64,000 nucleotides of DNA, from positions 1 through 64,000 of the IMG/VR virus record IMGVR_UViG_3300036985_010228. One strand, written 5' to 3'. Origin of the DNA: a virus. Below, one piece after another: positions 1,542 through 62,844 of the stretch (position 1 is the stretch's first letter; every line of letters starts with the position of its first letter). The notes beneath the pieces are model-generated. The model saw nothing but the letters and a program-made list of their open reading frames with translations. It searched no databases and had not been told where the DNA came from. The position numbers and the translations under genes are program-made.

Positions 1542-4500
1542 ATGACCGACACTCTCGACAAGCTCAAGAAGGCATTCGAGCAGGCGATCAGCACAGCCAC
1601 TGCGGTCCAGCCGTGGAACGAGCCGCTGACCCGTCGAGACGCCGTGCAGCCTGGGCAGGTTCTCACGACCCCCCTCGTTCAGGGTGGCCTCGGCTCGTGG
1701 ACGGGCTCCTCCGGGTTCCCCTACACGGGGACGACGGTCGCGGGCGTGCAGACCGGGGCTCAGCCTCCGGCCCGCAACTCGTTCGAGTTGGGTCTGGGTC
1801 TGCCTGGCGTTCCCGACGTGGACTTCGTCCCCTACGCGGCAGGTACCAACCGCTTCGGGGGCAAGGGTCCAGCACTCATCGGCCACCCAATCTCCTGGGA
1901 GGTCGTCGGCCCGACCCTGAAGTCGCCCTACTGCGACTGGCAGTGGCACGTTGACACGACCGGCCTGACCAACGACGTACTGACCCTGGAGGCGGGGCCG
2001 TACCCCATGCCCACGGGCGGCCTCCCCTCGAACATTTCGCCCCAAGCCTACGGCCCCAATCTCGCTGGGTTCGACGCTGTGGGCGGCCTCTACGTCCTGT
2101 TCACGTTCACGGGCGAGGGCTTCACGGGTTCTCTGGCAGGGGGGCGGACGCCCCTCACACCGGCCCCCAAGAGCTACCGGGCGTCCTTCGAGCTTTTCCG
2201 CGTCCTCAGTATCGACGCCCCGGCCCTCTCGATCGTGCTTCGTGGGGAGAAGCGGGTCGCCAGCGTGTTCCCCTTCGGTGGAGACGGCTGCCGGGCGATC
2301 ACGCTCGTTCGACCGAAGGTCACACGCCTCGCGGCGTTCCCTGTCCCCGTCGTCGGGCAGGTTCAGTCGAACCGGACGTTCGTGTTCCTTCCGCCGGAGA
2401 CGGCGGCCACGTCCGAGTTCATGCCGCCGAACAAGACGGCAGGGCTGGGGACATGGAGTACAGGCGGGTTCGACGTTGCGGGGACGATCCCTGGAGGCAA
2501 CACCAGCTACTACGGGAACCCCGCCAAGCTCCCGATCCCCCGGCCTGTGGCTCGGGTGGACGCAGAGATCCCGCTCGCACTCGTTCCCCCGCTCCGCGCA
2601 GACGAGTGGCAGATCAGCGTCCCGGTCGGAAGCGGCGAACTGAAGGTCGGTCGGATCGTTCGTATCTCGAACCTCACCGACAGCATTCCGTCCCAGGTCA
2701 GCCCGAACGCGAAGCACGCCTACGGCTACTTCGAGATCCGCTCGATCACTGTCGGGCCGCCCGACATTCTTTTCCTCGGGCGTGTGACGGAGGCGAACCC
2801 GGACACGGGCGAGGTCTTCTACGGTAACGGGCCGTTCGCTGTGACGGCTCCCGTTCCGGTCAGCTTGGAGGTCTACGAGAACGTCTCCACGATCTTCAGC
2901 GGCACCATGCTGAACCTGGAGAAGCTCGCGTCGGCGAGGCTCGTGAACCTGATCGACCCACGCACGGTCGGTCCCTCGATCACGCGCCGCGACACTGACG
3001 GGAGCCCAGTTCCGGCCTCGAAGCCGGACAGGGCGATCTTCAACACTCGTCTCGGGGAAGACCCAGGCAACCTCCTCGACCTCGGGTTCAGGACGGTCCT
3101 CTTCCCGGCGAAGGTCGTGGGCGGGAACGCGGTCCCCGACTTCGACAAGCCGATCGACTCGAACGAAGCCATGCTCGACCCCTCGGTGAGCGAGCGCCAG
3201 TACGTCGAGATCGACTACTCGGCGGGCGTCGCTTACCTGTCTCACACCCCTGCCGCTGGCAATCCAGCGTGCGAGGTTGCGCCCTCGCTCGCCCCGTTTG
3301 CGGCTGCAAACAACCCTCGGCAGGAGGTCGTCCTCTTCGCGGCGTGCGTGCCGTACTCAATGGAGGAGGGGCAGTCAGGGTCGGGCTTCAGGATCACCGG
3401 GTCGAGCCCTGACTCGATCGACGGCGGCCTCGGGGCAAACGACCTCGCGGACGTGTTCGGGCGTCGGATCATTGCGGAGCCCTACGGGGCTCTTCAGACG
3501 CTCGACCCGAGCACCGCTGCTCCGATCACGACGACGCTTTCGAGCCTCGGAGACATTCCGCCCTCGGGGTTCTTCTTCGTCGGCTACGCGCTGCCTGGGA
3601 CGATCTTCCCGACCCAGTACGGCCCCTACTACTACCAGTACACCGACGCTCCTCTGGGTCGAGTCCGCCTGAACGGGATCACCGGACCTGCGGGTGCAGT
3701 GCCGCTCGATCCAACCCTGCCGGACGGCTCCAAGATCGTCCTCCAGCGGTCGCTGCGGTCCTTCGCTCCGACGAACGCTTCTGCCGACACAGTTCGCGGG
3801 TCGTCCAAGAGGGTCAACACCCTCGCGTTCAAGAACGCGGACCTCAGCTTCGGGGCTGACGGCTCAGTCACGATCGAGCCTCGGGTCGTTGGGTTTGGAC
3901 TCGACGACGCCTACAGGCAGGGGCTCGCGGCTACGCCCGGTGTCGGGCGTGTCGTCGTCTCTGACGGCGGTCCAGTCGAGCTTCGTCCGGCAGGCTCCTC
4001 TGCCAACCCGATCTCGGACCTCCTGTTCCTTCCGGCTCAGGTTCGGTCCCGCTACGACCTCGGTGTGGACGGGACCGGCGACAAGGCCGGGTTCGACTTC
4101 CTTGGCCGTCGCTCGAACGTCTCGGCTGCCCCCTACGGTGGGATCGACAACTTCGCCGGGTTCATGGACCGGCGTGTGTTCGCTCCGCAGACCCTGCTCG
4201 GGTACACGATCCTCGGCGACCTGGCGAGTGGTGACCCGCACTTCAACGTGAGCGTCGTTGCTGCTGACCAGATCCACCTCACCACGGCGGGCAACCAGTT
4301 CCACGACGGCGGTGCAACCAATCGGACGCTCCTCGTCAACGACCTGGACTTGGTCCACCTGGACGGGCTCGGGGTCTACGTCTTCCACCAGGCAGTGGGT
4401 GGGTCCCCCGGCGACTACCTGATCCGCAATCTGGACGGGAGCGTTCCCGCTCTGGCCTTCCCAACCCCGGCGAAGGGCTGCCTGGCGTACCGCCCCCGGT

Positions 4501-5966
4501 TCGCCACGGGACGCAGCTTCGACGGTGGTGCAGTCCTCCCGGTCATGGGCGGGACGTGGATCACGTCACAGGGCGAGAAGCCCGCCCTTCGGCTCTACGC
4601 TGGCTCTGGCACCGTGTTCGGCGGCCCAGACGAAGGCGGGTCCACCGAGAGCCTGGAGTTCTGGTACAGGAGCCAGGACAAGACGCCCCGCTCGGACAAC
4701 TCGTTCGACACCTACGGACGGCTCCTCGGTGGGAGTGTGATCCTGAGCGCAGCCGACCTGTCGCTGCGCGGCCCCTACCTGACCCGCTCTCGGCAGGTCA
4801 GCAACCTCGGAGGCAATGCCTTCGCGTTGGGGCACGTCTTCGAGACCAGCACGATTGGGGTGTTGGCCCCAGACAGGTCCTTCGACTTCCTGTCGCTGCA
4901 CGCGAACTCAATGGGGACGCTGGTCGGGGCCTTCAACTACACGGTGATCGCTGCCGACACCGTTCGGTTGGCGACTGCCTCTCCTGGCTTCACGCACCGC
5001 AGGCTCTCGCTCAGTGGTGGCACCTTCGTAGACCTCACGTCCTACACGGGGGCCGGGGACCACATTGGCCTCTACCGCGTCATTGGGACAACCAATCCCG
5101 GCGGCGCAGGAACGGCTGACCTTCAGCTTCTTCGGCTGGACAACACGGTTCCGGCTCTGGACTTCGCGGGTCCCGCAACGGGCAGCAGCCAGGTCTTCAC
5201 GGCGGCCTACACCGGACTTGGGTTCGACAGCTACTACGACTTCGCGGGCGTTCTCCAGACGCACCAGCCCACCACAATGGTGGGCGTCGGAGAGGTCAAC
5301 ACCTCGGTCGGTCTCCACGTCTCTGGACCCGACCCGGTGATCGTCACTGGGGGCAAGGCGATCCGCGTTACCTCCCTGAACGGACTTGCCAATCAGGCGG
5401 ACGAGCGGTTCTCTGTTGGGCTCGACGGCACGACGACCGGATACGACTTCGGTTACGGGCAGTACAAGCTCAAGAACGTCGTCATTCCCATGTCCGAAGG
5501 CACTCCCGTCCTCAACGCGGGCGTCGCCGAGTGGGACCTCCAATACCTCGGGGGTGTCACTCAGTGGTACTCCCTTGCTAGCAGGAGTGAGGTCTTCTTC
5601 CCGCTCCACATTCCGAACGACTGTTCAATCGTGAACGTCCTCGTCGTCGTGACGCCGAAGAATGCAGTCCCTCTTGCTGTGAACCGTGTCCAAGCGCGTC
5701 TCCTGACGCTTGACCACGACTTCACGACCCCTGCGGTTCCGACCGCAACGATCATTGGCGAAGCCGCCGACGACGGGACTATCAACACTCAGGTGTTGGA
5801 CCTCCGAAATGCCCCCGGCCTCGGCTTCGGTGTGGACCAGGTGGTTGGCTACACCTCAGGCACGAAGGAGTGGGTCCTTCGGGTCATTTCTGGGAATGCT
5901 GGTCTGGGGGATCTCCTCTACTCGATCCAGGTCCAACTGAAGATCAACAGGCCCGCTCCCCTCTGA
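1542..5966 (+). CDS. Very large putative virion structural protein (1474 aa)
   Basis: Long ORF with phage-like codon usage, rich in Gly/Pro/Thr and beta-strand character. Its C-terminal domain (FFPLHIPNDCSIVNV...YSIQVQL) resembles the C-terminus of the 34187..35605 fibre. Confidence 0.75.
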   Translation: MTDTLDKLKKAFEQAISTATAVQPWNEPLTRRDAVQPGQVLTTPLVQGGLGSWTGSSGFPYTGTTVAGVQTGAQPPARNSFELGLGLPGVPDVDFVPYAAGTNRFGGKGPALIGHPISWEVVGPTLKSPYCDWQWHVDTTGLTNDVLTLEAGPYPMPTGGLPSNISPQAYGPNLAGFDAVGGLYVLFTFTGEGFTGSLAGGRTPLTPAPKSYRASFELFRVLSIDAPALSIVLRGEKRVASVFPFGGDGCRAITLVRPKVTRLAAFPVPVVGQVQSNRTFVFLPPETAATSEFMPPNKTAGLGTWSTGGFDVAGTIPGGNTSYYGNPAKLPIPRPVARVDAEIPLALVPPLRADEWQISVPVGSGELKVGRIVRISNLTDSIPSQVSPNAKHAYGYFEIRSITVGPPDILFLGRVTEANPDTGEVFYGNGPFAVTAPVPVSLEVYENVSTIFSGTMLNLEKLASARLVNLIDPRTVGPSITRRDTDGSPVPASKPDRAIFNTRLGEDPGNLLDLGFRTVLFPAKVVGGNAVPDFDKPIDSNEAMLDPSVSERQYVEIDYSAGVAYLSHTPAAGNPACEVAPSLAPFAAANNPRQEVVLFAACVPYSMEEGQSGSGFRITGSSPDSIDGGLGANDLADVFGRRIIAEPYGALQTLDPSTAAPITTTLSSLGDIPPSGFFFVGYALPGTIFPTQYGPYYYQYTDAPLGRVRLNGITGPAGAVPLDPTLPDGSKIVLQRSLRSFAPTNASADTVRGSSKRVNTLAFKNADLSFGADGSVTIEPRVVGFGLDDAYRQGLAATPGVGRVVVSDGGPVELRPAGSSANPISDLLFLPAQVRSRYDLGVDGTGDKAGFDFLGRRSNVSAAPYGGIDNFAGFMDRRVFAPQTLLGYTILGDLASGDPHFNVSVVAADQIHLTTAGNQFHDGGATNRTLLVNDLDLVHLDGLGVYVFHQAVGGSPGDYLIRNLDGSVPALAFPTPAKGCLAYRPRFATGRSFDGGAVLPVMGGTWITSQGEKPALRLYAGSGTVFGGPDEGGSTESLEFWYRSQDKTPRSDNSFDTYGRLLGGSVILSAADLSLRGPYLTRSRQVSNLGGNAFALGHVFETSTIGVLAPDRSFDFLSLHANSMGTLVGAFNYTVIAADTVRLATASPGFTHRRLSLSGGTFVDLTSYTGAGDHIGLYRVIGTTNPGGAGTADLQLLRLDNTVPALDFAGPATGSSQVFTAAYTGLGFDSYYDFAGVLQTHQPTTMVGVGEVNTSVGLHVSGPDPVIVTGGKAIRVTSLNGLANQADERFSVGLDGTTTGYDFGYGQYKLKNVVIPMSEGTPVLNAGVAEWDLQYLGGVTQWYSLASRSEVFFPLHIPNDCSIVNVLVVVTPKNAVPLAVNRVQARLLTLDHDFTTPAVPTATIIGEAADDGTINTQVLDLRNAPGLGFGVDQVVGYTSGTKEWVLRVISGNAGLGDLLYSIQVQLKINRPAPL

Positions 5967-5973
5967 GGACAGC

Positions 5974-6729
5974 ATGACCAAGTACGGCTGGAAGCCAGAC
6001 CTCCCCGACCACCGAGACCGTGTCTACGCAGCCCCCAGGCGCGCAATCGCGGTCCTGCCCCCGAAGGTTGACCTGCGACCCCTGTGCCCGCCGGTCTATG
6101 ACCAGGGGGACCTCGGAAGCTGCACAGGCAACGCAATCGCAGCAGCGTTCGCGTTCGCGAAGAAGAAGGAGGCTCCCAAGGCTCCCTTCATGACCCCCTC
6201 CCGCCTGTTCGTCTACTACAACGAGCGGGTCATGGAGCACACGGTCTCTCAGGACGCGGGGGCTCAGATCCGCGACGGAATCAAGAGCGTCGCCAAGCAG
6301 GGCGTCTGCTCCGAGAGCACCTGGCCCTACGTCCCCAAGGACTTCAAGAAGAAGCCCCCGAAGGCGGCCTACTCGGAGGCGCTCCTGAACCAGGCGCTCA
6401 GCTACGAGCGGGTGCTGCAATCGCTCGTGCAAATGCGGGTGTGCCTGGCCTCGGGGTTCCCGTTCGTCTTCGGCTTCTCAGTCTACGAGGGGTTCGAGAG
6501 CGACGCGGTCGCCAAGACAGGGAAGCTCATGCTGCCTGGCCCGAATGAGGCGGCTCTCGGTGGTCATGCTGTGCTCTGCGTGGGGTACAACGACGCCCAG
6601 CAGAGGTTCCTCGTCCGCAACTCCTGGGGCGCGGGCTGGGCTCGGAAGGGCTACTTCACAATGCCCTACGAGTACCTCCTGACCTCGAACCTGTCCGACG
6701 ACCTCTGGACGATCCGCACTGTGGAGTGA
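5974..6729 (+). CDS. Papain-like C1 family cysteine peptidase
   Basis: Catalytic motifs DQGDLGSCTGNA (Gln/Cys), GGHAVLCVGY (His) and VRNSWG (Asn); YGWKPDLPDHRD N-terminus typical of bacterial C1 (xylellain-like) enzymes. Confidence 0.93.
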   Translation: MTKYGWKPDLPDHRDRVYAAPRRAIAVLPPKVDLRPLCPPVYDQGDLGSCTGNAIAAAFAFAKKKEAPKAPFMTPSRLFVYYNERVMEHTVSQDAGAQIRDGIKSVAKQGVCSESTWPYVPKDFKKKPPKAAYSEALLNQALSYERVLQSLVQMRVCLASGFPFVFGFSVYEGFESDAVAKTGKLMLPGPNEAALGGHAVLCVGYNDAQQRFLVRNSWGAGWARKGYFTMPYEYLLTSNLSDDLWTIRTVE

Positions 6730-6732
6730 GGC

Positions 6733-7176
6733 ATGGAACTCTGGAACCAACTGTTCTCGTCACCGACCATTCTCATTGCCGCTCTTCTGATCGGCACTCT
6801 CGGGGAGGTCGTGAAGCGCGCCGTGGACTCGAAGGAGATCGAGCAACGGATCGCCGACTTTCATGCGGACCCCAAGTCCGGTCCGCAGCCTGTTCTGTGG
6901 CAACGGGTCTTCTACTACACGCTCCCGGCCCACTCAGTCCTCATGGGGGTCGCACTCGGATTCGTGCCGTGGCTCCCCGCTGTGGCGGCTCTTGAGCGCC
7001 CAGGGTACGAACTGGCCGCCCGTCTTGGCACCTACACCATGGCAGGGATCTTCTGCAAGATCGGGTATGACCTGATCATTTCGACCGCGAAGCGCGCCCT
7101 CAAGAAGAACCTGTCGAGCAGCAGCCGCTCCACCCCGCCTCCTCCTCCTGCTCCGGCAGACGGCGGAAACGGCTGA
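6733..7176 (+). CDS. Small membrane protein, holin-like
   Basis: About three hydrophobic segments and a basic, Pro-rich C-tail; directly follows the peptidase. Confidence 0.5.
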   Translation: MELWNQLFSSPTILIAALLIGTLGEVVKRAVDSKEIEQRIADFHADPKSGPQPVLWQRVFYYTLPAHSVLMGVALGFVPWLPAVAALERPGYELAARLGTYTMAGIFCKIGYDLIISTAKRALKKNLSSSSRSTPPPPPAPADGGNG

Positions 7177-7230
7177 TGCGCCGCCCCTCGGCGGCTAGCC
7201 TATGGACTCGGGACGTAGAGTAAGCGAGCG

Positions 7231-8034
7231 ATGAGAATCTACGCGGACATTTCTCGACTTCCGAACGTCGGTCCCGAACTGGCCTCGGTGATCATTCAGG
7301 TGGCCCCTACCCCTCCGGTAGGAAGCGCACCTGTTCCGGTCAACGGGAAGTTCTACGTGGACCTGCCCGAAGGCGTTGCTCCTCCTCGGATTGACCTGGG
7401 GTCGAAGCTGCTTGGCCCTGCCCCGGCCAACGTCGTCCCAGCGATCTTCGCCGGGCTCCTCGCGAAGTACTCCAAGTACAGCTTCGTCCAATACAACGCC
7501 CTGCTCACGTCAGCCGACGTGGCGGCCCTTGACCTCGCAGCGACATTCCCGGCGAGCGCAGGTCCGCCGCCCCTCTCGTGGGCTACGCGGGCTCAGGTGG
7601 GCCGTGGGGCCGGTCCTGACGCGGGCCTGGCCCCCAACTCGGTCGCGGTCCTTCCGCAGAACAACACGACCTCCCCGGCTCGCCCTGGGCTGCTCGTCAC
7701 CGACACGATCGACATTTCGGCGGACATTCCCGCCGGGACCACCGAGTTCCTCGTCTACTGGAAGATCCACGAGTACGTCGTCACGGCGGACGTGCTCGAC
7801 TACGACAGCCCGACTCCTGGGGCGAACGAGGCTGCCCTCAAGCAACTCGTCGAGGTGGATCAGTCCCCCGTTGACTTTGCGGTCTATCTCTCGGCCAATG
7901 ACGGTGGGGGGTACTCTCCTGTGGGCCGCCTGATTCCGTGTGCGGTCTGTGACCCAGGCACGAAGATCCGACTCGCCTTCGTGAACACCTCCACCACCAA
8001 GCGTTACGTCGCGTCCTACGCGCTGCTCTACTGA
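7231..8034 (+). CDS. Putative virion structural protein
   Basis: 267 aa, preceded by the CTAT-N11-GTAG motif and lying between large structural genes. Confidence 0.6.
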   Translation: MRIYADISRLPNVGPELASVIIQVAPTPPVGSAPVPVNGKFYVDLPEGVAPPRIDLGSKLLGPAPANVVPAIFAGLLAKYSKYSFVQYNALLTSADVAALDLAATFPASAGPPPLSWATRAQVGRGAGPDAGLAPNSVAVLPQNNTTSPARPGLLVTDTIDISADIPAGTTEFLVYWKIHEYVVTADVLDYDSPTPGANEAALKQLVEVDQSPVDFAVYLSANDGGGYSPVGRLIPCAVCDPGTKIRLAFVNTSTTKRYVASYALLY

Positions 8035-8045
8035 GGCGAAGACTC

Positions 8046-11000
8046 ATGGCTGAGAATTGGGGACCAGGCGTCTCTCGAACACTCTCTGCGCTCGCACGGC
8101 AGTTCACTGCTGTCGTGTGGCAGGCTGACAAGCCGCCGCTGGACTCCGAACTCAATCTGATGAGCCAGATTGATTGGGAGAGCCTGTCGAGCGTGGTGCG
8201 TTCGCAGGTCCACTCGGGGTTCTTCCTGGACCCGACCCGCGCTCGGGAGGACTACGAGGTCGATCCCCTCTGGACCAACCAGTTCGCAATCGGCGTCCCA
8301 GCGGTGGTGAACACCGTCGAGGAGGCTGAGCCGGTCCTGATCGCAGCGGTCAACGGCTGGGTCTTCCCGATCGCGGGTACGCAGATCGATTCGGTCAAGA
8401 ACCGGATCGCCCTCTACCCTCCCCCGACGACTGATACCCGGACGGACCTCGTGTTCCTGGAGGTCTGGCGGACGATCATTGCGCCCAACCCGTCCACGGC
8501 CAACAAGCCCACGGCGGCGACGATCTGGAAGTACGGCAACGTCGAGTACGGCGGCACCAACGTCACCGACGACCTCGAAGACCCGTCGATCGGGTTCGCG
8601 ACGACCGAGCGGGTTCAGCTTCAGTACCGGATCCGAGTCGTGGGTTCGGGCGATGGCCTCGGCACGAGCGTGGACCTCGCCAACTACCCCGACGGGATCG
8701 ACGACCCACAGGTCCGGGCTCAGGGCACGGCAGCCTCTCCGGTGCCTGCATTCACGTTCTCAAATATGCGCCAGGAGCTTGGGGACCCCTCGCTGTGGCG
8801 TGCGGGCGACGGCGACTACCTGAACGCTCTCGGCACGATCGACGGCTACGTCTACGCGGTTCCGATCTGCGGGATTTTCCGCCGGAATGCAAGCCCGTTC
8901 GTTGCGGTGACAAGCTCTGGCAACCCCAATCAGAACGGCGCTACGGAGCGCACCCCTGGTTCGAGGTCACTGCCCGACCCACGCAACGGCGCACGGGCGC
9001 TCGCCCAGGCTGTTCTCGCGGCGGACGTGACCAGCACGCAGACAGGTCCGATCGTCCTCACCGACCTGGTCAACTCGGCTCTGGCTGACCCAGACCTCTT
9101 CCCGGTCGGCGTCACGACTCGGTTCCTGGTCCTCGGGTCTGGGATCGACCGAGAGATCATTGCCTTCACCGGTACGGACCTGGTCAGCACGATCTACGTC
9201 CCGACCCCGGTTCCTGGTGTGACCTCGGGGCGAGGCCGCAACGGGACCATGGCCCGCCCGCACCTCGCAGGTACGGCGGTCGTCCTCTACGACTCACGCC
9301 CGGACGGGTTCTACGCGGACCAGATCGTCCGTGACGACCTCGTGGACCTTCGGCGTGCGGTGAACTTCGGGGATTGGGACTACACCCGGATCCTCCAGCA
9401 CGCCGTCGCGTCGATCGCTCAGGGTGGCCTCAAGACCACCTTCAAGCAGGCGGGCACCGGGGCGGACACCTTCGGCGTCGTGACGACGGAGGTTTCGTAC
9501 CTCTGGGGCGTCAACACGACTCCTCCGCCGAATCACACGGAGCAGATCGACGGCCCGGACGGTATCCGGACGATCTGGTCAGACTCGGCTGCGCTTCAGC
9601 CGGACGTGACGTTCATGGTGGACCCGAACGCCCCGACGACCAATGGCTTCGCCGACACGACGTTCTCGTCGAGCGTCGTCGCAAGCTGGGCCGTGGGCGC
9701 GGACTTCCAGCCCAGCGGATTCCTGAACAACCCCACGACGGACGGCTGGACCAACGGCTCGGTGATCTTGGTCCACCTCGGAGGCTCCTCGGGCACCGAC
9801 GGGGCTCGGGCAGGGTTCCCACAGTCCCCCAATCCTCTGGCGGTCCGCCAGGTGTCCCCGGCGGAAATGTGGCTGTCGGACGGCTCAGTGAACCTGGGCG
9901 AGCAGCACCCGTGGAAGCTCCGCTTCGAGGGTGGGCCGACGGCTGCTACCCCGGTTCTTCCGGCTACGACCCCGGTCGCCAATGCGTTCAGCGCAGCACG
10001 GATCACCAGCCCCGCCGTGACAGGTGAGCCCCTGGTCGAGCACCCCGGCCCAATGTACCCGCTGCGAGAGCAGAACTTCGAGCGGCCTTTCATTGTCCTC
10101 GGGGGCGTCCTCAATCAGGCGCTCGCCTACACGGCGATCCCCTCCACCTCGACGAACTTCGTCAACCCGATCAGCCCCGACACCCGGTATCAGATCCGGG
10201 TCCCCGGCCTGAACTTCAACACGTTCACCCTGCCGCTTCTTCGTGGTGAGAAGACGCTGCGGGAAATGCTCACGGACGGGAACCGCGACCGCACGGGCGC
10301 TTCGTCCCAGGTCTACGTCGTCGTCTACGGGAACGCCCTCTCCAAGGACAACAACGGAGCCTTCAAGGTCGTCGGAGCCGGTACAGCCGCAGCCTCGGGC
10401 GGGGCGTACACGGACCTGCTCGCCGACGCCGCAGACCAAATGGTCGTGCTGCCCCTCTCGGCGGACTTCGCGGCCTTCACTCACGACCCCACTCAGACGG
10501 TCGTCCTGGAGTTCCGCTCCCAGACGATCAACGCTGAGGACGACAAGGGGCGCGTCAGCGGTCCTGCGGGCGTCGCGCTCGTGTTCACGGACCTGGCAAG
10601 CACCGTGGGTGGCAGTGGCAGCCCCTGGAACGCGGCGAACACCGGCACGTTGGCGGTTCAGCAGACGGGCCTCCCGGCGAAGCTCATTCCGGTCAACAGC
10701 AAGGCTGTGATCACCTCGACGCTCCTGTGGAGCCCGAACCGTGGTGCCAGCACACGGGTGCCGAGCAAAATGGTCCGGTTCTCGGCGAGGGCTTCCGCTG
10801 CGACGTTCCTCAGGAACGTGCCCTCGGTGATCGACCCTGAGTTCTCGACACTCGCCCCGTACCCGGCTGGGGAGCGCGAGTACGACGGCACCCACGTCCA
10901 GTTGTGGAACCGTCTCCCCTCGCTCGGGGAGTTCGCGCCGAACGCGCCGTCCTACGGTGGGCTCGTCGTGGGTCGCTCGGAGCAGGACCGGGAGCATGAA

Positions 11001-13565: not shown

Positions 13566-13630
13566 CCTAGTCAGACCCATGTGGGGCAAGTAGCTCAGTG
13601 CCCTGGAAACTGAGACCTGAGAGAAACACC

Positions 13631-14092: not shown

Positions 14093-14132
14093 TCAACCAA
14101 TGGCTCGTAGTGTTCTGACTGGAGTGACCTGA

Positions 14133-14723: not shown

Positions 14724-14762
14724 CCAATCTGAGTGCCGCCTCTGCGAAGGGGTAACCTACCC

Positions 14763-15796: not shown

Positions 15797-15797
15797 G

Positions 15798-50236: not shown

Positions 50237-50303
50237 CCCTGAGGCAGCAGCGACACCCGGTTTTCTTAGCTCCCTGGGCCAATCCCAGGGGCGAGGAGAA
50301 CCT

Positions 50304-50480
50304 GTGTCCCGCACCCGTCACCACCGCTCGCAGAAGCATGGGTTCACGTCCGGACGTGAACCCGCCTGGTATCGCCGTCAGCACATGAGGCTCTGGAGGG
50401 CTCGCTGCAACCACCTCACCCGTCTCGGGAAGTACGACGTGCTGCCCCTCTCTCGGGAGCGGTACGGCTGGTACTGGTGA
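50304..50480 (+). CDS. Small basic Arg/Trp-rich protein
   Basis: GAGGAG Shine-Dalgarno 6 nt before GTG; MSRTRHHRSQKHG...WYRRQHMRLWRAR...YGWYW. Confidence 0.55.
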   Translation: MSRTRHHRSQKHGFTSGREPAWYRRQHMRLWRARCNHLTRLGKYDVLPLSRERYGWYW

Positions 50481-50522
50481 GGCTTGGCGTTTCGCCCTAT
50501 CACCGCACGGGAAAGAGAGCCC

Positions 50523-55064: not shown

Positions 55065-55097
55065 ACCTCACGCTCTGACTGGGCTACAGTTCGTGGC

Positions 55098-55976: not shown

Positions 55977-56107
55977 CACCTCCGTCTGGGGGTGTGACTT
56001 CACTCACCCTGCCACAGGACGCACCAGACCACCACTCGCCGCCCCAGACGGCACCAGACGGCACTGGAGCGTCAGGTGGTGTGAAGTCAAAAGGTGTAAC
56101 ATGGGGG

Positions 56108-56518
56108 ATGAAGAACGAGGACAATGTGTGTGGCTTCTGCCGCCGATCTTTCCACACCCCCCAGGCAAAGGACGCCCATGTACACTGGTGCCATCACCAA
56201 TGCTCGGTCTGTAAAGTCATCCTCAAAACTGCAAGCTCCCTGATGAATCACTGGGGTAGGTGTCACCCACAATGTCCGAAGTGTGTGAAAACCGGCAACT
56301 GCGATCACTTCGAGAGCCACAAGGCTTTGGTGGAGCACTACCTGAAGGAACACCCAGAGGTGGCGGCTCCGGCGAAGCCACGGCCTCTCTTTTTCCGCTG
56401 CCCCGTTTGCAAAAAGAAGTTCCCGGCAGAGCAGGGTATGAAGGACCACCATCGGTTCGTGCATACCAAGGTGGCCGCAGTTGGCGATCAGGAACACCCC
56501 GAGAAGAGCCTTGGGTGA
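56108..56518 (+). CDS. Protein with four C2H2-type zinc fingers
   Basis: CGFC..SF......AH....H; CSVC.......LMNH....H; CPKC...F.....LVEH....H; CPVC.KKF......KDH....H. Confidence 0.75.
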   Translation: MKNEDNVCGFCRRSFHTPQAKDAHVHWCHHQCSVCKVILKTASSLMNHWGRCHPQCPKCVKTGNCDHFESHKALVEHYLKEHPEVAAPAKPRPLFFRCPVCKKKFPAEQGMKDHHRFVHTKVAAVGDQEHPEKSLG

Positions 56519-56609
56519 TTCTACCGAACTTCGACCAGGTCGTGAACAGGTAGCGCCCCGCCTACCAAGGGCTGTGCGGTTCTCCTCCTCTCGGGCAGAG
56601 AGGTAGAGC

Positions 56610-59600
56610 ATGGCTACGGATCCCACACCCAAGTCTCGTGCGACCGGCGGCCTGGTCACAGTCCTCCCGGCGTCTGTGACCGGGCCGACCGTCCAGAACC
56701 CGGCCCCCTTCGACCAAGAGGGCCAGGTTGACGAGTCGCGTGTCCGGGCTGTCGCCGACCAGATCACGACGGTCTTCCTCAACTCGCTCCCGTCGAACTA
56801 CGTCGCGGAGACGAAGGGGCCGTACTACGCCCAGCAATTCCAGGCGATTGCGGAGGAACTCGCCCGTATTCAGGTCACCTCGGAGGACGCCTACGAGGAC
56901 GCGGACTACAACTTCACGCGCCCAGAAGTCCTCTTCCAGTTCCTCGCGGACCTGATCTTCCCGACCTCCGCCGAGACGGGCCTGCCGAATCTCGACGGCG
57001 ACCTCACCTACAGGGCGTTCCTTCAGAAAATGGTCGTGTTGCTCCTCAAGGGCAGCAAGACCGTCACGCTCCTCGAAGGCGTCGAGGCTCTCACCGACGC
57101 TGAAGTCTCGGTCCTCGACGAGTCCGACTTCATTGGGAAGCCGGGCGTCGGCTGGGGGGTCGCGAACCGGTTCACGTTCGAGGTCAACGTCTCGAACCAC
57201 CACCGGACGACTGGTGGCAGCACGGTTGACCCCCACTACCACACGGTCAAGATCAATGCGGCGGGCGAGGGCGTCACCACGGGGATCACCTGGGCGGACG
57301 GCTCTGGTCCTGACCACGTCCACGTCATTCTGGGGTTCCTCGTCGCAGAGGCTTCGGCGACGGGCCTCCCGGCGCACACGCACGACCTGCTCTCGGACTT
57401 CGCCAATCTCCCGATCATTCTCGCGCAGAACGTCGCGATCGTCATGCGGGCGCTCCGCCCCGCGCACACGCTCTACGAGTACCGCAACCTCTTCCGCGAG
57501 ACGTACCGCCACGTCTTCACCGACGACTACCAGAAGCTCGAACTCGACTCGTACTACTACGACGACTTCCGGAAATACTGCACAGGCGTCAAGGAGATTG
57601 GCTCCTCCACCGGGGTTATTTTCGCCGACAGGTACACGCTCAACGACGTGGTGAGCTTCCGGTCGGTCCGGGTCGGGGCTCCGCTCGTGATCGCCTCTGG
57701 GGCGAACGCGGGTCGCTACCTCGTCCGTGAGGTGCTCTCATTCCCGTTCGGTGACGACCCGGTCGCTCGGGCGTACACAACCTCGCCTACGGGACTGAGC
57801 GGCACGGCCAGCGTCGTGGACGGGGCGTTCGTTGACCTCCTTCAGGATTGGGCGCTCGCCGTCCCAGGGGAGGTTCTCACCTTCGCGGTCGGACCCAACG
57901 CAGGTCGGTACGTCCTGGAGACGGTCCTCGGCTTGAACGGCGGCCCGGTCGGTTCGGCTGCTGGCCCTGCAACTGAGGTTCGCCCTGCGGTCTGCTTCCT
58001 GCGGGTTGGCCCCAAGTTCCCGGCGGCAGCCAGCGGTGTGGCCTACACGGTCGAAGTGGACCGCCTCGGCATTCGGTCCTCGATTGAGGTCACGAACGAG
58101 GACGTGGCGAGCCAGTTCTTCGCGCCTCCTGCTGGCGGCCAGGCGAGCTTCTTCACGGCTCGCGGGCCTCTCGTCAGGCGCTACGGGGACGCGACCCCGG
58201 CGACCCGTTCGGACGTGACGGTCCTCTACGACGGGGTGCCTGTCGCAGTCTCCGACGTGAACCCGTACACCGGGGAGGTCACGCTTTCCGCCCCGCTCGC
58301 GAGGTTTGCTCCTGGGGCGCACACGGTCACGATCTCGTACCGGTGGTTCCCTGCCCCGCTCATGGGCTTCGCTGGGCTCAACACGAAGGGTGTCACGCTC
58401 AATCGGTGGAGCTTGGCGGGCGGTCGGAACACGACCTCGCCGACCTCTGGCGGGTACTGGGGCGGCTTTCGGACCTCGCGGTTCCCGCTGTCCCTCGGGC
58501 TCGGCAGGTTCCCCAAGAGGAAGCCCCCGGTCAGGATCGCCCACAGGTACATTGCCTTCGAGCGCGCCTACACCTCGGCCCTGAACTCCCCGACGACGCT
58601 GCTCCTCAATCAGGCCCCAGGCAGGGTCTCGGTCCCCTACGCTGAGGCTGACGTTGTACCGACGGCAGTTCAGTACGAGGGCACGGCCAGCCCAGCAACT
58701 CCGTGGACAGCTAAGGGCTCGGTCACGGGCACCTCTGACGGTGACCGCTACACGCTCACGGACTCCAGCACGACAGAGGTGGGCTACTGGTCGCAGGACT
58801 TCGAGCTTCCTGTCGCTTCGGTGGTGGGGACGGCGGCCCGGTTCCAGATCGAGAGCTACACGCTCGACGGGGTGTTCACGGGTGTCGGGTTCGGGATCCA
58901 CAACGACCGGCGGCTCTACCTGGCGGGTGCGCTCGTCGTCAACGGGCTCAAGCACATTGGCCTCTTGGCCCGGCCCGGTGAACTCAATGCACTGAGTTCG
59001 TGGATCGTCGGCCCTCTCGCCAACAGCACGATCCTCGCCCCCAAGATCGTAACCTGCACGCTTGCTCAGGCACCGAAGCTGCTGGCCTCCGGGCAGAAGT
59101 TTCAGATCCTCTCTGGCAATCAGGCGGGCGTCTACACGGTCGATCAGGTCTTCCTCGACCGCAGGCGCAACCTCGCCACGATCACGATCGTCGAGACGTT
59201 CCCAGGCAATCCCGCCCTCTTCGGCAACAAGTACGTCGATCTCGTCTTCGAGACAGCATGGGACGCCGGGCAATGCACCTGGCGGCTCTACGCCAGCACC
59301 CGCAACGACTCAGTGCAGCTTGTGTTCGGCGGGGCGACCGGCGGCACGCTCGCCACTGTCTCGGGCGGACCAGTTCTGGCCTCTCCGGCGTACCTCGGGC
59401 CTGACGTTCTTCCGCAGGGCTCGGGCCGCTACCTCTGGGGCTCGTTCGACCGCAAGGCCACGAACACGACGACGTGGGACTTCGTTCGGTACCTGTCCAC
59501 GCCCGACGGTGGAACTCGGTTCTCGCGTGGCACCGTCGTAGACACGCAAATGACTGGGGACCCGGAGGACGCCGAGTGGTTCCTCACGACGCCCTATGGT

Positions 59601-62147
59601 GACTCGGCGACGGCGGGCGGGCTTCTTCGGATCACGGCAACCCCTGCTGAGGTCAACCTCGACACGTCCTACGGCTACGGGCTGGTGGACCCGTTCCTGA
59701 ACGGTCGTCGAGTCTCTGCGTTCGACGCCAAGCTCAATCTCGACCGGGACACCTCAGGGGCGGGTGGTGCTGCCCTCACCATGAAGGACACCCACCGCGA
59801 GGCGCGGCTCGGGAACATTCTCTACCAGGACAACGGAGCGAGCGGGAAGCTCGTCTTCGCCCAGCCGTCGTTCTCTCTCGTGGGGGCAACACCACCTACC
59901 TCGCAGGGGTGGGCGGCGTTCACTGACCCTGGGTTTGGAACTCCGACCACCTTCGCGAACGGACCTGAGACTCTGCTGACAGGGGCGGGCGGGCTCGTCC
60001 CGTGGCTCTGGGTCCAGGCGCTCCCCACTCCTGCAATCAGCACAGGCCGCACTTGCGAGTTCCGGCTCTCGGTGAATGACTACGCGCTGAGCGGGTCGGG
60101 CACGACGGGCCTGAGCTTCTTGGCGAGCGTCAGCAACAGGATCGTGGCCGTCACGTTCACTGGGCCGGACCTCGTCAATCTAGTGGACGTGACTGGGCCG
60201 GTTCTGGCGAGCGCCGCTGTTCCGTGGAGTGACGGGGCACGGCGCACCTACCGCCTGGAGGTGAGCCCCTCCGCCAACCTCGTCGAACTCTACGTGGACG
60301 ACGTGCTGGCCACGTCGTTCGCCTTCGTCGCGTTCCCGCTCTTCGCAGCTACCGCAGACGGGCTCTCGTTCGGATACCTGGCTGAGGTCGGGGCTTCGTT
60401 CGAGGTCTCCCTGAACAGCCTCTGCTTCATGGAGCGGCTCGACGGGGTGGCCAACCTTCACCGGACGTTTGGGATCTGGAAGGGCGGAGACTTCTCGAAC
60501 CTCGACAACTGGGAGATCCCCCGGTCCGACGGCCTGAGCGTCCCCAACTCCGACCCCGCCTCGGCTCCCGTGGACATGGACTGGCGCTCGGAGTGCTGGG
60601 TCCGTCTGTTCGTGGACCCGACGTTCGGTGCAGTCTTCCTTCGACCTGACCTGCCCGCTCCTCCGGGGTACACAGGTGACTTCGCCACGCAGTCGCTCGA
60701 CCCGACAGCTTCTTGGGCTCGCGTCGATTACGCCAAGCTCCCCAGGGCAGAGAGCGACACCAGGTTCGGGTCCGTCTTCTTCGGCGCGCTCAATCCGGCG
60801 GCCTCGACGATCCAGTTCTGGAACGAGGTCCGCTACCGGGTCTTCACGCACACCTCCATTGACTACCGAGCGCCCCAGCGAATGGCGCTCAATCAGTGGA
60901 ACGTCATTTCGAGCGGCGACTACCTGAAGGACCGGACCCCTGAGCAGGTCATTGTCGCGGCCTTGACCCCCACGAGGGTCAGCCTCCGCCCGGCGCATAT
61001 CTTCGCGAACCGAGTCTTCCAGGTCATTGTCGAAGGGGTGCCTCTCGCGCAGGCCACCTGGCGCTTCAACGCCGACAGCCAGGAGATCACCCTCTTCAAC
61101 GCACTGCCCTCGACGGGCTACCCGGTCACGGTCGTCTTCGCGGTCGGCAAGCCGGTCACGACCACCTACCTCCAGAGCCAACCGCTCCCTGAGTCGCAGA
61201 CGATCCTCAATGAGGGGACGCCCGTCGTTCCAATGGGGCAGGTCGGCCAGGCGACGGTCTCCACTGTCTCGGGTGACGGCGGGCCGACGCCTGCCTTCCC
61301 TCCAGCGGTCCCTGCGGACCCAGCGTACTTCCTCCGGGACCAGTACCTCGTCCGGAAGTTCGTGGACGACCCGGACCTGCTGTACGAGCAAATGGACTTC
61401 TTCCAACTGGAGGACGACGGCGTCCGGGGGAAGATCTCGTCCTTCTGCGACGGTCCAGGAAACGGCACGGGCCTCCGCGAACTCGGCCTCGACGGGTCGA
61501 GCTTCACCGAGAACCTCTCCCCAGTCACGTCTCCGTCGGCCTCCAACTTCGGTCGGGGTGCCGGACGGTTCGGCCCAGTGCTGTTCGCCTCGGGCGGGCG
61601 CGCAGGAGTCATGGGGCTCCTCGGACCTGCCAGCTACGTCACTCCCTTCTCAGGTCCCAATCCGGCCCCCACCGGACTGCGGGCGGCAATGCTCTCGCCG
61701 ACAGGACCCTCGGCAGGGGTGGTACCCGGCTCAGGCGAAGGTGCAATCAACAGGGAGGTCTTCTGGGTGCTCAGGCTGGGCTCCAGCCCAGGCTCGGTCC
61801 TCGCGAATGCGATCCCGCCGATCGACACCCCACTGATCGAGGGGACGATCCTCCTTCCAATCGTTCCGGTCACGGCGGACCAGAGCTACGCCTCGGCTGG
61901 CCCGGCCCCAATCAGCCCGTCGGTCGCAGGTCCCGCCACAGGTGCCGCCTGGTATCAAATGGCTGCGGCGGCCTCGTACCCACGATTGGGTCCATGGGCG
62001 GGCTTGGCGGCCCTGACCACGAACTCGCTTCTGTACGGGTCCTCGTCCCTTCAGCCCTCAGGCGTCCCGCTCTCAGGACAAGGTATGGTTCTTCGAGGTG
62101 GCATTCCTCTGCCTGCGGCCCCGGTTCCGGTGTCCGGGGTGCTCTGA
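56610..62147 (+). CDS. Giant baseplate/tail protein (1845 aa)
   Basis: Wedge-like N-terminus (YRAFLQKMV.LLLKGS...MRALRPAHTL) following the baseplate J gene, then multiple beta-rich domains. Confidence 0.75.
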   Translation: MATDPTPKSRATGGLVTVLPASVTGPTVQNPAPFDQEGQVDESRVRAVADQITTVFLNSLPSNYVAETKGPYYAQQFQAIAEELARIQVTSEDAYEDADYNFTRPEVLFQFLADLIFPTSAETGLPNLDGDLTYRAFLQKMVVLLLKGSKTVTLLEGVEALTDAEVSVLDESDFIGKPGVGWGVANRFTFEVNVSNHHRTTGGSTVDPHYHTVKINAAGEGVTTGITWADGSGPDHVHVILGFLVAEASATGLPAHTHDLLSDFANLPIILAQNVAIVMRALRPAHTLYEYRNLFRETYRHVFTDDYQKLELDSYYYDDFRKYCTGVKEIGSSTGVIFADRYTLNDVVSFRSVRVGAPLVIASGANAGRYLVREVLSFPFGDDPVARAYTTSPTGLSGTASVVDGAFVDLLQDWALAVPGEVLTFAVGPNAGRYVLETVLGLNGGPVGSAAGPATEVRPAVCFLRVGPKFPAAASGVAYTVEVDRLGIRSSIEVTNEDVASQFFAPPAGGQASFFTARGPLVRRYGDATPATRSDVTVLYDGVPVAVSDVNPYTGEVTLSAPLARFAPGAHTVTISYRWFPAPLMGFAGLNTKGVTLNRWSLAGGRNTTSPTSGGYWGGFRTSRFPLSLGLGRFPKRKPPVRIAHRYIAFERAYTSALNSPTTLLLNQAPGRVSVPYAEADVVPTAVQYEGTASPATPWTAKGSVTGTSDGDRYTLTDSSTTEVGYWSQDFELPVASVVGTAARFQIESYTLDGVFTGVGFGIHNDRRLYLAGALVVNGLKHIGLLARPGELNALSSWIVGPLANSTILAPKIVTCTLAQAPKLLASGQKFQILSGNQAGVYTVDQVFLDRRRNLATITIVETFPGNPALFGNKYVDLVFETAWDAGQCTWRLYASTRNDSVQLVFGGATGGTLATVSGGPVLASPAYLGPDVLPQGSGRYLWGSFDRKATNTTTWDFVRYLSTPDGGTRFSRGTVVDTQMTGDPEDAEWFLTTPYGDSATAGGLLRITATPAEVNLDTSYGYGLVDPFLNGRRVSAFDAKLNLDRDTSGAGGAALTMKDTHREARLGNILYQDNGASGKLVFAQPSFSLVGATPPTSQGWAAFTDPGFGTPTTFANGPETLLTGAGGLVPWLWVQALPTPAISTGRTCEFRLSVNDYALSGSGTTGLSFLASVSNRIVAVTFTGPDLVNLVDVTGPVLASAAVPWSDGARRTYRLEVSPSANLVELYVDDVLATSFAFVAFPLFAATADGLSFGYLAEVGASFEVSLNSLCFMERLDGVANLHRTFGIWKGGDFSNLDNWEIPRSDGLSVPNSDPASAPVDMDWRSECWVRLFVDPTFGAVFLRPDLPAPPGYTGDFATQSLDPTASWARVDYAKLPRAESDTRFGSVFFGALNPAASTIQFWNEVRYRVFTHTSIDYRAPQRMALNQWNVISSGDYLKDRTPEQVIVAALTPTRVSLRPAHIFANRVFQVIVEGVPLAQATWRFNADSQEITLFNALPSTGYPVTVVFAVGKPVTTTYLQSQPLPESQTILNEGTPVVPMGQVGQATVSTVSGDGGPTPAFPPAVPADPAYFLRDQYLVRKFVDDPDLLYEQMDFFQLEDDGVRGKISSFCDGPGNGTGLRELGLDGSSFTENLSPVTSPSASNFGRGAGRFGPVLFASGGRAGVMGLLGPASYVTPFSGPNPAPTGLRAAMLSPTGPSAGVVPGSGEGAINREVFWVLRLGSSPGSVLANAIPPIDTPLIEGTILLPIVPVTADQSYASAGPAPISPSVAGPATGAAWYQMAAAASYPRLGPWAGLAALTTNSLLYGSSSLQPSGVPLSGQGMVLRGGIPLPAAPVPVSGVL

Positions 62148-62211
62148 TACTTGGGGATCGCTACGTCGCCTATCTTCCGCGAAGGGAGCGGCCTCACCTG
62201 AGCAGGATTGA

Positions 62212-62844
62212 ATGCGACAGAAGGACTCAATGCCTAGGCCGAAGCAAGGCTTCAAAATGGGAGCAGCCATTCGCTACAACGACGCGATCCTGGGCGCGAA
62301 GGGCAAGTTCCTTATCGAGCTTCGGGACTCCCGCACGGGCGACCTTCTCCACTACGAGGAGAAGGACAATATCATCACGCTCGACGGCGGCGTGCTGGCG
62401 GCAATGCTCTTTGCTGCTGGAGCCACCAGCACGAGCGGGATCACCATGCTCTCGGTCGGCACAGGGGCGACCGGCCCGCTGCTGAACCCAGACGCTCCGG
62501 ACCCCCGGCAGAGGCACCTCAACGCCGAGATTGCGCGCAAGCCGTTCTCCAGCGTGACGTTCCGAACCTCGGCAGGCGCTGTGTCTTCGGTGCCCACGAA
62601 CGTCGTGGACTTCACCACGATCTTCGGTGAGGGTGAGGCGGTCGGCCCGCTCAACGAAATGGGCCTGCTGCGGACGATCTCCATGAACCCGCTGGTGCTG
62701 AACCCGGTCCCCTCGGTGTTCCCCGCATACGACCCCACTGTCGATCTGACCTTGTTCGACGTGGAGGTCAACGCACTTACATTTTCTGTCGTCTCAAAGC
62801 CAAGTACCTCAATACTTTCGGTCACTTGGCGGCTTACATTCTGA
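62212..62844 (+). CDS. Tail-collar / fibre-attachment-like protein
   Basis: DNIITLDG...ITMLSVGTG...LNAEIARK...FTTIFGEGEAVGPLNEMGL...VSKPSTSILSVTWRLTF. The start may instead be 62230 or 62257. Confidence 0.75.
   Translation: MRQKDSMPRPKQGFKMGAAIRYNDAILGAKGKFLIELRDSRTGDLLHYEEKDNIITLDGGVLAAMLFAAGATSTSGITMLSVGTGATGPLLNPDAPDPRQRHLNAEIARKPFSSVTFRTSAGAVSSVPTNVVDFTTIFGEGEAVGPLNEMGLLRTISMNPLVLNPVPSVFPAYDPTVDLTLFDVEVNALTFSVVSKPSTSILSVTWRLTF

What the first reader, a model, noticed from the sequence alone, without database searches (positions are those of the whole stretch)
1542..62844. Systematic synonymous avoidance of the asymmetric 4-mer CATC/GATG
Seen: Ile is normally ATC here, but after a C-ending codon it almost always switches to ATT (AAC ATT 2031, AGC ATT 2682, GAC ATT 2763 and many more). 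Before Met, the usually G-ending Glu/Gln/Lys codons switch to A-ending (GAA ATG 9864, CAA ATG 10437, AAA ATG 10767). Both changes remove CATC/GATG, while GATC is abundant. Some survivors are forced (Trp-Met, Met-Met) and a few are not (1877, 8652, 28866, several in the UvrD gene). Inference: long selection by a host defence reading a non-palindromic CATC core. This could be several Type IIS enzymes (FokI GGATG, SfaNI GCATC, BccI CCATC share it) or an uncharacterised 4-base system.
Basis: partly seen in the sequence, partly recalled or inferred. Interest (0 to 1): 0.75.

Follow-up and report, generated by a model that had tools for sequence, protein, structure and literature searches.

The report
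CATC/GATG purge in a huge phage
A fragment of a huge freshwater-sediment phage has lost about nine-tenths of its copies of the 4-letter word CATC/GATG, mostly by synonymous changes, while its closest relatives keep the word; this is best read as escape from a restriction enzyme that reads those four bases.

Summary
In the 76-kb record that holds the window, CATC+GATG occurs 52 times against about 470 expected. A codon-preserving shuffle gives 12 vs 310 (z -23) and 16 vs 130 (z -15) on the coding strand.

- All codon phases, both orientations, all flanks and non-coding DNA are depleted.
- WCATCW, which no known 5-base enzyme covers, is at 11 vs 68.5. The 4-base core is therefore the target.
- The "abundant GATC" is mostly an arithmetic by-product of the purge.

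The DNA is a piece of a huge (~450 kb) uncultured myophage. It also lacks 41 of the 64 six-base palindromes.

Sister phages (PolA 86% identical) share the palindrome purge but carry CATC at normal frequency. Only 4% of their sites survive here, and they were removed at every position of the word. Homing-endonuclease cassettes still carry the word.

Best reading: lineage-specific selection by an orientation-independent nuclease that reads GATG/CATC. Such a specificity was first validated in 2026 (MhoVII, Mycoplasma hominis). Neither the host nor the enzyme was found.

This is a clean new example of a known phenomenon. Another first-stage reader noted the same feature in an overlapping window of this genome, and an unchecked note reports CATC/GATG avoidance in another genome.

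The parts
1..64000 (.). Phage backbone purged of CATC/GATG. The purge continues to the end of the 76,089-bp record.
   Evidence: Outside the mobile cassettes there are 37 sites against 445 (Markov) or 478 (zero-order) expected. Codon shuffle gives z -23 and -15. Non-coding DNA has 1 vs 23.5.
1542..5966 (+). 1474-aa gene with no family match.
8046..13565 (+). 1839-aa gene.
15798..19808 (-). UvrD-like helicase gene with 7 surviving sites: 4 Lys-Met AAG ATG, 1 Met-Met, and Tyr-Ile and Phe-Ile.
   Evidence: Pfam UvrD-helicase E 6.5e-44. 7 sites against 27-34 expected.
27058..29727 (+). Family A DNA polymerase, used as the yardstick for relatives. Three forced Trp-Met sites (27123, 27822, 29406) and one Lys-Met (28866).
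   Evidence: Pfam DNA_pol_A E 2.1e-58; relatives.
48438..49379 (+). GIY-YIG/NUMOD3 homing-endonuclease cassette, 59% GC. It carries 5 GATG (about 6 expected) but none of the 41 purged palindromes.
   Evidence: Pfam NUMOD3 8.2e-11, GIY-YIG 1.5e-5.
55098..56518 (+). Second GIY-YIG endonuclease gene plus a zinc-finger ORF, 59% GC. 6 sites against about 10 expected, and none of the purged palindromes.
   Evidence: Pfam GIY-YIG 3.6e-7; zinc-finger hits.
62888..64000 (+). ROS/MucR-domain ORF that runs to 64147 of the record, 59% GC. 3 sites inside it, plus a TGATG stop/start overlap at 64146.
   Evidence: Pfam ROS_MUCR 3.8e-10.
21699..21702 (+). Example of a survivor formed by a G before a start codon. 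Others are at 7230, 30015 and 31439; 7175 and 64146 are TGATG stop/start overlaps.
   Evidence: and ORF coordinates

Best explanation
The window is part of a huge (~450 kb), probably unmodified, methyltransferase-poor myophage from freshwater sediment. This lineage has been under sustained selection against every copy of the double-stranded word GATG/CATC.

The most likely agent is a host restriction endonuclease that reads just these four bases in either orientation. It would be an orthodox Type II / Type IIS-like restriction-modification system with the specificity recently shown for MhoVII.

Each unmethylated site adds to the chance that the incoming genome is cut. Mutations that destroy a site are therefore favoured, and those that create one are removed. 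Most of these changes are synonymous: ATC to ATT after C, GAT to GAC before G, and NNG to NNA/NNC before ATG.

Shown here:
- the purge, its independence of codon phase, orientation and flanks, and its presence in non-coding DNA;
- its absence from sister phages;
- the unpurged state of mobile cassettes.

Inferred, not shown: that the agent is a nuclease, that it belongs to the host, and that one 4-base enzyme is at work rather than several.
For: 1. Strength and specificity. CATC and GATG are the two most depleted 4-mers under a codon-preserving shuffle. Among 343 known asymmetric restriction sites with at least 20 expected copies, the median observed/expected is 1.07. Only sites containing CATC, plus CAGCTC, are purged.

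2. The 4-base core. All 16 NCATCN classes are low. WCATCW is 11 vs 68.5 (P 8e-18).

3. Selection at DNA level. Coding-strand CATC is at 0.04 and GATG at 0.12. Plus-strand counts are 25 vs 27. Non-coding DNA has 1 vs 23.5.

4. Selection, not one mutational process. Of 200 sites in sister contig L046 that lie in aligned blocks (82% nucleotide identity), 8 are kept. That is 4%, against a median of 50% for other 4-mers. The replacements hit all four positions: CATT 23, GATC 22, CCTC 13, TATC 12, CGTC 9, GACG 25, CATG 18, AATG 17.

5. Lineage-specific. The 33 related contigs of 10 kb or more (PolA 29-86% identical) and four 45-50-kb stretches of LR745208.1 all have observed/expected 0.9-1.6.

6. 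Mobile homing-endonuclease cassettes carry 14 sites against about 21 expected, while the backbone has 37 vs 445. This is as expected for recent arrivals from unpurged relatives.

7. The same genome shows textbook restriction avoidance. 41 of 64 hexamer palindromes are absent, with about 1000 copies expected. No N6/N4, D12 or C5 methyltransferase was found in the 76 kb.

8. [quoted passage not shown]

9. Site avoidance in phages is typical of orthodox Type II systems, rare for Type III, and absent for Types I and IIG (PMC6286503).
Against: - No host, no restriction enzyme and no GATG/CATC methyltransferase was identified.
- Only about 17% of the phage genome is in hand.
- 52 sites remain in 76 kb, which scales to about 300 in the whole genome. 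The phage would still be cut by an efficient Type II enzyme. Only 10 of the 28 sites in typical genes are forced. The selection per site must therefore be partial, for example through a two-site requirement, a slow enzyme or a race with methylation.
- A/T-flanked sites are less depleted (0.16) than the rest (0.05). This leaves room for added 5-base enzymes.
- The only validated GATG/CATC system is from a low-GC mollicute, far from any plausible host of a 64% GC sediment phage.
Confidence: 0.6

Rival explanations
1. The purge is the sum of several 5-6-base Type IIS enzymes that share the core: FokI-type GGATG, SfaNI-type GCATC, BccI-type CCATC, CdiI-type CATCG and others. These would be met in one host or across a host range.
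For: All four known 5-mers are at 0.03-0.05 of expectation. Sites covered by one of them are more depleted (17 vs 372) than WCATCW (11 vs 68.5). The phage clearly meets very many restriction specificities.
Against: WCATCW is covered by none of the four and is still at 0.16 (P 8e-18). The Biopython copy of REBASE Type II sites has no ACATC, TCATC, CATCA or CATCT enzyme. It is not parsimonious that at least four unrelated specificities were gained together in one lineage while sister phages show none of them.
Confidence: 0.15
2. The word is read by another kind of motif-based defence rather than an orthodox Type II enzyme. Candidates are a Type III system with a 4-base site, or a modification-based system with a 4-base consensus such as the phosphorothioate Dnd/Ssp systems.
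For: From my own knowledge, not tested here: 4-base asymmetric motifs are known for Type III Mod proteins (CGAG, GACC) and for phosphorothioate systems (GAAC/GTTC). Incomplete purging would fit a system with a weak cost per site.
Against: A Type III system needs inversely oriented site pairs, and its typical escape is strand bias. Here both orientations are equally depleted (25 vs 27) and interleaved. Avoidance of Type III sites is rare in phages (PMC6286503). No GATG phosphorothioate motif is known to me.
Confidence: 0.1
3. The nuclease or nickase that reads CATC is encoded by the phage itself, or by a co-infecting rival, and is used to degrade host or competitor DNA. The phage protects itself by lacking the sites.
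For: 83% of the genome is unseen, and the purge is confined to this lineage. From my own knowledge: chlorella viruses encode nickases that read short sites.
Against: No candidate was found in the 76 kb. The only nucleases seen are GIY-YIG homing enzymes, whose cassettes themselves carry the word. The 52 residual sites would mean self-damage. Known viral host-degrading nucleases are paired with modification of the viral DNA, not with site loss.
Confidence: 0.07
4. There is no selection on DNA sites. The pattern comes from a context-dependent mutation bias (for example deamination) or from an effect at RNA or translation level.
For: CATC to CATT and GATG to AATG are C-to-T transitions on the two strands. 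These are among the commonest replacements.
Against: Removal also occurs by T to C (GAT to GAC, 25 cases), by changes at position 1 (GATC 22, TATC 12, CATG 18) and by TCN to AGY. ATC stays the preferred Ile codon in every other context. Both sense and antisense words are depleted, and so is non-coding DNA. Sister phages with the same replication genes are unaffected.
Confidence: 0.02

Closest known systems
Restriction-site avoidance in virulent dsDNA phages (Sharp 1986, from my own knowledge; Rusinov et al. 2018, PMC6286503)
   Same: Sites are removed by synonymous changes, and elimination is complete or nearly so. The avoidance is lineage-specific and is seen for systems with a separate nuclease. 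The same genome also lacks 41 hexamer palindromes.
   Different: The avoided word is only 4 bases long and asymmetric, so hundreds of sites per 76 kb had to go. The purge is about 90-96% rather than complete. The host and its enzymes are unknown.
MhoVII restriction-modification system of Mycoplasma hominis (PMC12898733, 2026)
   Same: It recognises exactly GATG/CATC. Both strands are methylated (6mA) by a fused M1+M2 enzyme, and a separate endonuclease cuts unmethylated sites. This is the kind of enzyme that would select against the word in either orientation.
   Different: It comes from a low-GC mollicute of the human urogenital tract. No homologue was looked for or found in a candidate host here. 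Its cleavage position and efficiency are unknown, and no phage avoidance has been linked to it.
Type IIS enzymes with the CATC core: FokI/BtsCI GGATG, SfaNI GCATC, BccI CCATC, CdiI CATCG, BtgZI GCGATG
   Same: They share the asymmetric core, and all of their sites are at 0.03-0.05 of expectation.
   Different: They need a fifth or sixth base. The phage also purges WCATCW (0.16), which none of them reads.
Strand-biased escape from Type III enzymes (EcoP15I sites in phage T7; from my own knowledge)
   Same: It is a short asymmetric recognition word under selection in a phage.
   Different: T7 keeps its sites but has them all in one orientation. Here both orientations are removed equally (25 vs 27) and the survivors are interleaved.

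Membership tests
Restriction-site avoidance signature | The word is under-represented against a null that keeps the protein sequence and the codon usage. | tested here: met
   12 vs 310 and 16 vs 130, z -23 and -15.
Restriction-site avoidance signature | It acts on double-stranded DNA: both orientations, all codon phases, and non-coding DNA too. | tested here: met
   (non-coding 1 vs 23.5)
Restriction-site avoidance signature | It is specific to a lineage or host and not shared by relatives with similar composition. | tested here: met
   In the 33 related contigs of 10 kb or more, and in four stretches of LR745208.1, observed/expected is 0.9-1.6. The sisters at 86% PolA identity are at 1.1.
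Restriction-site avoidance signature | The host encodes a cognate restriction enzyme. | not testable with these tools
   The host is unknown. The only match in GTDB genomes is a 6.7-kb contig of a Gemmatimonadota MAG at 48% identity. REBASE methylomes are not on hand.
Target of a 4-base GATG/CATC system (MhoVII-like specificity) | Depletion does not depend on flanking bases. | tested here: met
   All 16 NCATCN classes are low. WCATCW is at 0.16 and the others at 0.05. The modest flank effect is not explained.
Target of a 4-base GATG/CATC system (MhoVII-like specificity) | A homologue of the MhoVII methyltransferase or endonuclease is present in the host or the phage. | not tested
   No MhoVII sequence was available by reference. 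No N6_N4 or D12 methyltransferase is present in the 76-kb record.
Sum of known 5-base Type IIS sites only | Sites outside GGATG, GCATC, CCATC and CATCG are left alone. | tested here: not met
   WCATCW 11 vs 68.5, P 8e-18.
Type III escape by strand bias | Surviving sites lie in one orientation. | tested here: not met
   25 CATC and 27 GATG on the plus strand, interleaved along the record.

The most novel reading that the evidence does not exclude
The 4-base word is not read by a classical MhoVII-type restriction enzyme. It is read by a system of a new kind: either a phage-borne nickase or nuclease that takes the host or rival phages apart while the phage stays safe by lacking the word, or a non-classical host defence with a 4-base asymmetric consensus. 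The contrast between this lineage and its 86% sister would then mark the gain of that system or a host jump.
Probability: 0.12. Interest if true: 0.8.

Novelty: new member of a known kind. Interest (0 to 1): 0.5.

Why it matters
- Four-base asymmetric restriction specificities are very rare. The MhoVII paper counts two 4-base motifs among 530 Type IIS motifs in REBASE, and it gives the first experimental proof for GATG/CATC (PMC12898733).
- This phage is independent evolutionary evidence that such an activity exists in a GC-rich freshwater-sediment bacterium. The activity is strong enough there to have removed, by extrapolation, a few thousand sites from a ~450-kb genome.
- The pair [quoted passage not shown] is a natural before-and-after experiment on how fast and by which substitutions a genome can shed a 4-mer.
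- The signature could be used to pair this huge phage with its host, by looking for G(6mA)TG/C(6mA)TC in sediment metagenome methylomes, and to find the enzyme.
- The clade as a whole looks like a rich record of restriction pressure. Each lineage purges a different set of words.

Tried and rejected
The contigs of the closest PolA relatives in Logan/ENA, and the 176.8-kb contig that carries the same PolA (P0121), could not be fetched.
- A megablast of 12 kb against GenBank phages found nothing.
- A single-protein scan of IMG/VR found nothing. The alignment-based scan worked.
- Relatives cannot be drawn for a virus record.
- Host search. A PolA-profile scan of GTDB genomes gave one 6.7-kb contig of a Gemmatimonadota MAG at 48% identity. 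Names of cluster members gave only distant "Actinobacteria bacterium" MAG labels at 53% identity. Neither is usable as host evidence.
- Population check. A 24.8-kb contig from another study is 99.4% identical. None of the 40 listed differences creates or destroys a site, but only 1.6 creations were expected, so this is uninformative.
- Amino-acid-level avoidance. Ile to Leu/Val at C|ATC positions is 29% vs 20% (p 0.2). Met-Met is 2 vs 4.1 and Trp-Met 3 vs 4.2. Neither is significant.
- The idea that a sister phage protects CATC with a methyltransferase next to PolA found no support. No methyltransferase homologue is present in L046, L047, L048, L006 or L007. The more distant L008, L009 and LR745208.1 do have them.
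- GATC enrichment as a separate signal is rejected. It is mostly a by-product of the purge.
- L050, a 1.1-kb contig with a 288-bp PolA piece, looks like an assembly chimera.
Full report
**What the DNA is**

The window is the first 64 kb of a 76,089-bp IMG/VR record. The record is labelled "provirus", with a CheckV completeness of 17%, and is 64% G+C. Nearly all genes lie on the + strand.

Genes with a family match:
- Family A DNA polymerase, 27058-29727.
- DnaB-like helicase, 24143-25687.
- Primase zinc ribbon, 26041-26625.
- SNF2 helicase, 21700-23322.
- UvrD-like helicase on the minus strand, 15798-19808.
- Baseplate-J and sheath-initiator proteins.
- Tail-fibre-like proteins.
- Two GIY-YIG homing endonucleases.
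- Several genes of 1000-1800 aa with no family.

The nearest named record is LR745208.1, a 485-kb uncultured huge phage with PolA 64% identical. PolA has hundreds of relatives on metagenome contigs of up to about 350 kb, and the same PolA sits on a 176.8-kb contig. The window is therefore a piece of a huge myophage of roughly 450 kb. I saw no integrase and no host flank.

Near-identical DNA occurs in freshwater-sediment metagenomes from at least three studies. One of these is a 24.8-kb contig that is 99.4% identical. The sequence is therefore reproducible.

**The observation**

Counts against expectation:

| Measure | Observed | Expected | Source |
|---|---|---|---|
| CATC+GATG, window (Markov) | 48 | 402 | |
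| CATC+GATG, whole record | 52 (25 CATC + 27 GATG) | about 470 | |
| CATC, coding strand (codon shuffle) | 12 | 310 (z -23) | |
| GATG, coding strand (codon shuffle) | 16 | 130 (z -15) | |
| Non-coding DNA, 3.3 kb | 1 | about 23.5 | |

The codon shuffle permutes synonymous codons within each of 52 genes. These are the two most depleted 4-mers.

- Ile after a C-ending codon is ATT 151 / ATC 11 / ATA 10, against ATC 670 / ATT 50 elsewhere.
- Before Met, G-ending codons are absent for nine amino acids. Glu is GAA 15 / GAG 0, although GAG is 83% of Glu codons overall.
- GAT before G, CAT before C, and TCN after NCA are also avoided.

All example coordinates are exact.

It is mostly a by-product of the purge.

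**Four bases or several five-base sites?**

- All eight 5-mers on each side are at 0-0.21 of expectation, and all 16 NCATCN classes are low.
- The class WCATCW is read by none of the known enzymes with this core (GGATG, GCATC, CCATC, CATCG; list from Biopython's copy of REBASE). It is at 11 vs 68.5 (P 8e-18). The other classes are at 17 vs 372.
- The core itself is therefore the target, with a modest and unexplained flank effect.
- Among 343 known asymmetric restriction sites with at least 20 expected copies, the median ratio is 1.07. Only CATC-containing sites and CAGCTC are purged. CAGCTC is part of a degenerate palindrome, SAGCTS.

**Selection, not mutation or an RNA effect**

- Both orientations are depleted on the coding strand, and non-coding DNA is depleted too.
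- In 15 kb aligned at 82% identity with the closest relative (L046, PolA 86%), the relative has 200 sites and this phage keeps 8 of them. That is 4%, against a median retention of 50% for other 4-mers.
- The replacements hit every position of the word: CATT, GATC, CCTC, TATC, CGTC; GACG, CATG, AATG.
- Eight of this phage's nine sites in the aligned blocks are shared with the relative, so the survivors are old sites.
- Amino-acid replacement is not significantly raised (p 0.2). The purge is essentially synonymous.

**It is specific to this lineage**

The 33 related contigs of 10 kb or more (PolA 29-86% identical, 34-65% G+C) and four stretches of LR745208.1 have observed/expected of 0.9-1.6. 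The two sisters at 86% have 224 vs 203 and 226 vs 206.

**The wider context is extreme restriction avoidance**

- 41 of the 64 hexamer palindromes are absent from all 76 kb, with about 1000 copies expected.
- TTAA, YACGTR, RCATGY, the SgrAI site and the AarI site are also absent or nearly so.
- NGATCN, CCATGG, WCCGGW, TCGCGA and a few others are at normal frequency. This is a list of specific sites, not a general dislike of palindromes.
- The sisters share this palindrome purge (9 vs 209 and 13 vs 215 for the same 41 words).
- Other members of the clade purge different 4-mers: CGCG, GATC, CCGG or CTAG at zero.
- No N6/N4, D12 or C5 methyltransferase is present in this record, or in two relatives of 222 and 248 kb. 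The less purged LR745208.1 has at least six.

**Mobile cassettes**

Three insert-like stretches of 59% G+C carry 14 sites against about 21 expected. They are the GIY-YIG/NUMOD3 gene at 48438-49379, the GIY-YIG plus zinc-finger ORFs at 55098-56518, and the ROS/MucR-domain ORF at 62888-64147. The backbone has 37 vs 445.

The same cassettes contain none of the 41 purged palindromes, with 41 copies expected. This fits cassettes that move among phages of this clade. Those phages share the palindrome purge but not the CATC purge.

**Survivors**

Of the 28 sites in typical genes, 10 are forced given the proteins and codon pools, and Trp-Met and Met-Met are forced outright. Several sites are a G before a start codon or a TGATG stop/start overlap. 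The UvrD-like gene keeps 7, four of them Lys-Met, where the alternative AAA is a very rare codon.

**Mechanism**

Shown: long, site-by-site selection on double-stranded DNA against GATG/CATC, in one lineage.

Inferred: the agent is a nuclease that reads the 4-base word in either orientation.

- Phage site avoidance is characteristic of orthodox Type II systems with a separate nuclease. It is rare for Type III and absent for Types I and IIG (PMC6286503).
- There is no strand bias of the kind that gives escape from Type III enzymes.
- A system with exactly this specificity was validated in February 2026. MhoVII of Mycoplasma hominis has a fused pair of 6mA methyltransferases for GATG and CATC, and an endonuclease that cuts only unmethylated sites. 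The authors note that only five unvalidated GATG/CATC methyltransferases stand in REBASE, and that 4-base Type IIS motifs are very rare (PMC12898733).

The weak point is that about 300 sites would remain in the whole genome. Protection must therefore be graded rather than all-or-none. It could rest on fewer targets in the race with methylation, on a two-site requirement, or on a slow enzyme. Alternatively, the purge may still be in progress.

**Rivals**

- A sum of 5-base enzymes (0.15).
- A non-classical 4-base system or a Type III system (0.1).
- A phage-borne nuclease with self-avoidance (0.07).
- A mutation or RNA-level effect (0.02).

**Verdict**

This is a very clean new example of a known phenomenon. 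It is useful as a lead to a rare 4-base asymmetric specificity and to the host of a huge phage.

Another first-stage note describes the same feature in the overlapping window of this genome (e1-6061766). An unchecked note reports CATC/GATG avoidance in another genome (e1-5812564).

Noticed in passing
whole window 1-64000 (and to 76089 of the record): 41 of the 64 six-base palindromes are completely absent, with about 1000 copies expected. TTAA is 0 vs 43, and the degenerate or longer sites SAGCTS, YACGTR, RCATGY, CRCCGGYG and CACCTGC are at or near zero. NGATCN, CCATGG, TCATGA, WCCGGW, TCGCGA, TGGCCA and AGTACT are at normal frequency.
   Followed up: partly
L006-L035, L046-L048 (related huge-phage contigs): Each lineage of this clade purges its own set of words. 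CGCG is at or near zero in L017, L020, L022, L026, L032 and L034. GATC is zero in L013, CCGG in L011 and CTAG in L022. Up to 46 of 64 hexamer palindromes are absent. The methyltransferase-rich LR745208.1 is much less purged.
   Followed up: partly
L036:13763-13835 (record 75763-75835, beyond the window): A tRNA with anticodon CTA (amber suppressor; ARAGORN labels it tRNA-Pyl), in a genome that otherwise reads well in code 11.
   Followed up: no
window 19846-21681: A 611-aa protein with a nucleoside 2-deoxyribosyltransferase-like domain (Pfam PF15891, E 4.8e-11). It could bear on nucleotide metabolism or base modification. Heavy site avoidance argues that the DNA is not hypermodified.
   Followed up: no
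whole record: The IMG/VR label 'provirus' looks wrong. No integrase or host flank was seen. The same PolA (P0121) lies on a 176.8-kb contig. CheckV's 17% completeness fits a fragment of a ~450-kb phage.
   Followed up: partly
L050:113-400: A 1.1-kb JGI contig holds 288 bp that are 94% identical to PolA (window 28428-28715). The piece sits between unrelated 68% G+C sequence that is full of the palindromes the phage lacks. It is probably an assembly chimera.
   Followed up: partly
window 27058-29727 and relatives P0005, P0006, P0017, P0031 and others: The PolA of many relatives is 1250-1400 aa long and carries intein or LAGLIDADG inserts (PF14528, PF14890). The PolA here is free of inserts.
   Followed up: no
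window 44729-45853 and 5974-6729: A peptidase C39-like domain fused to an inorganic-pyrophosphatase-like domain, and a separate papain-family (C1) protease. Both are unusual phage cargo.
   Followed up: no
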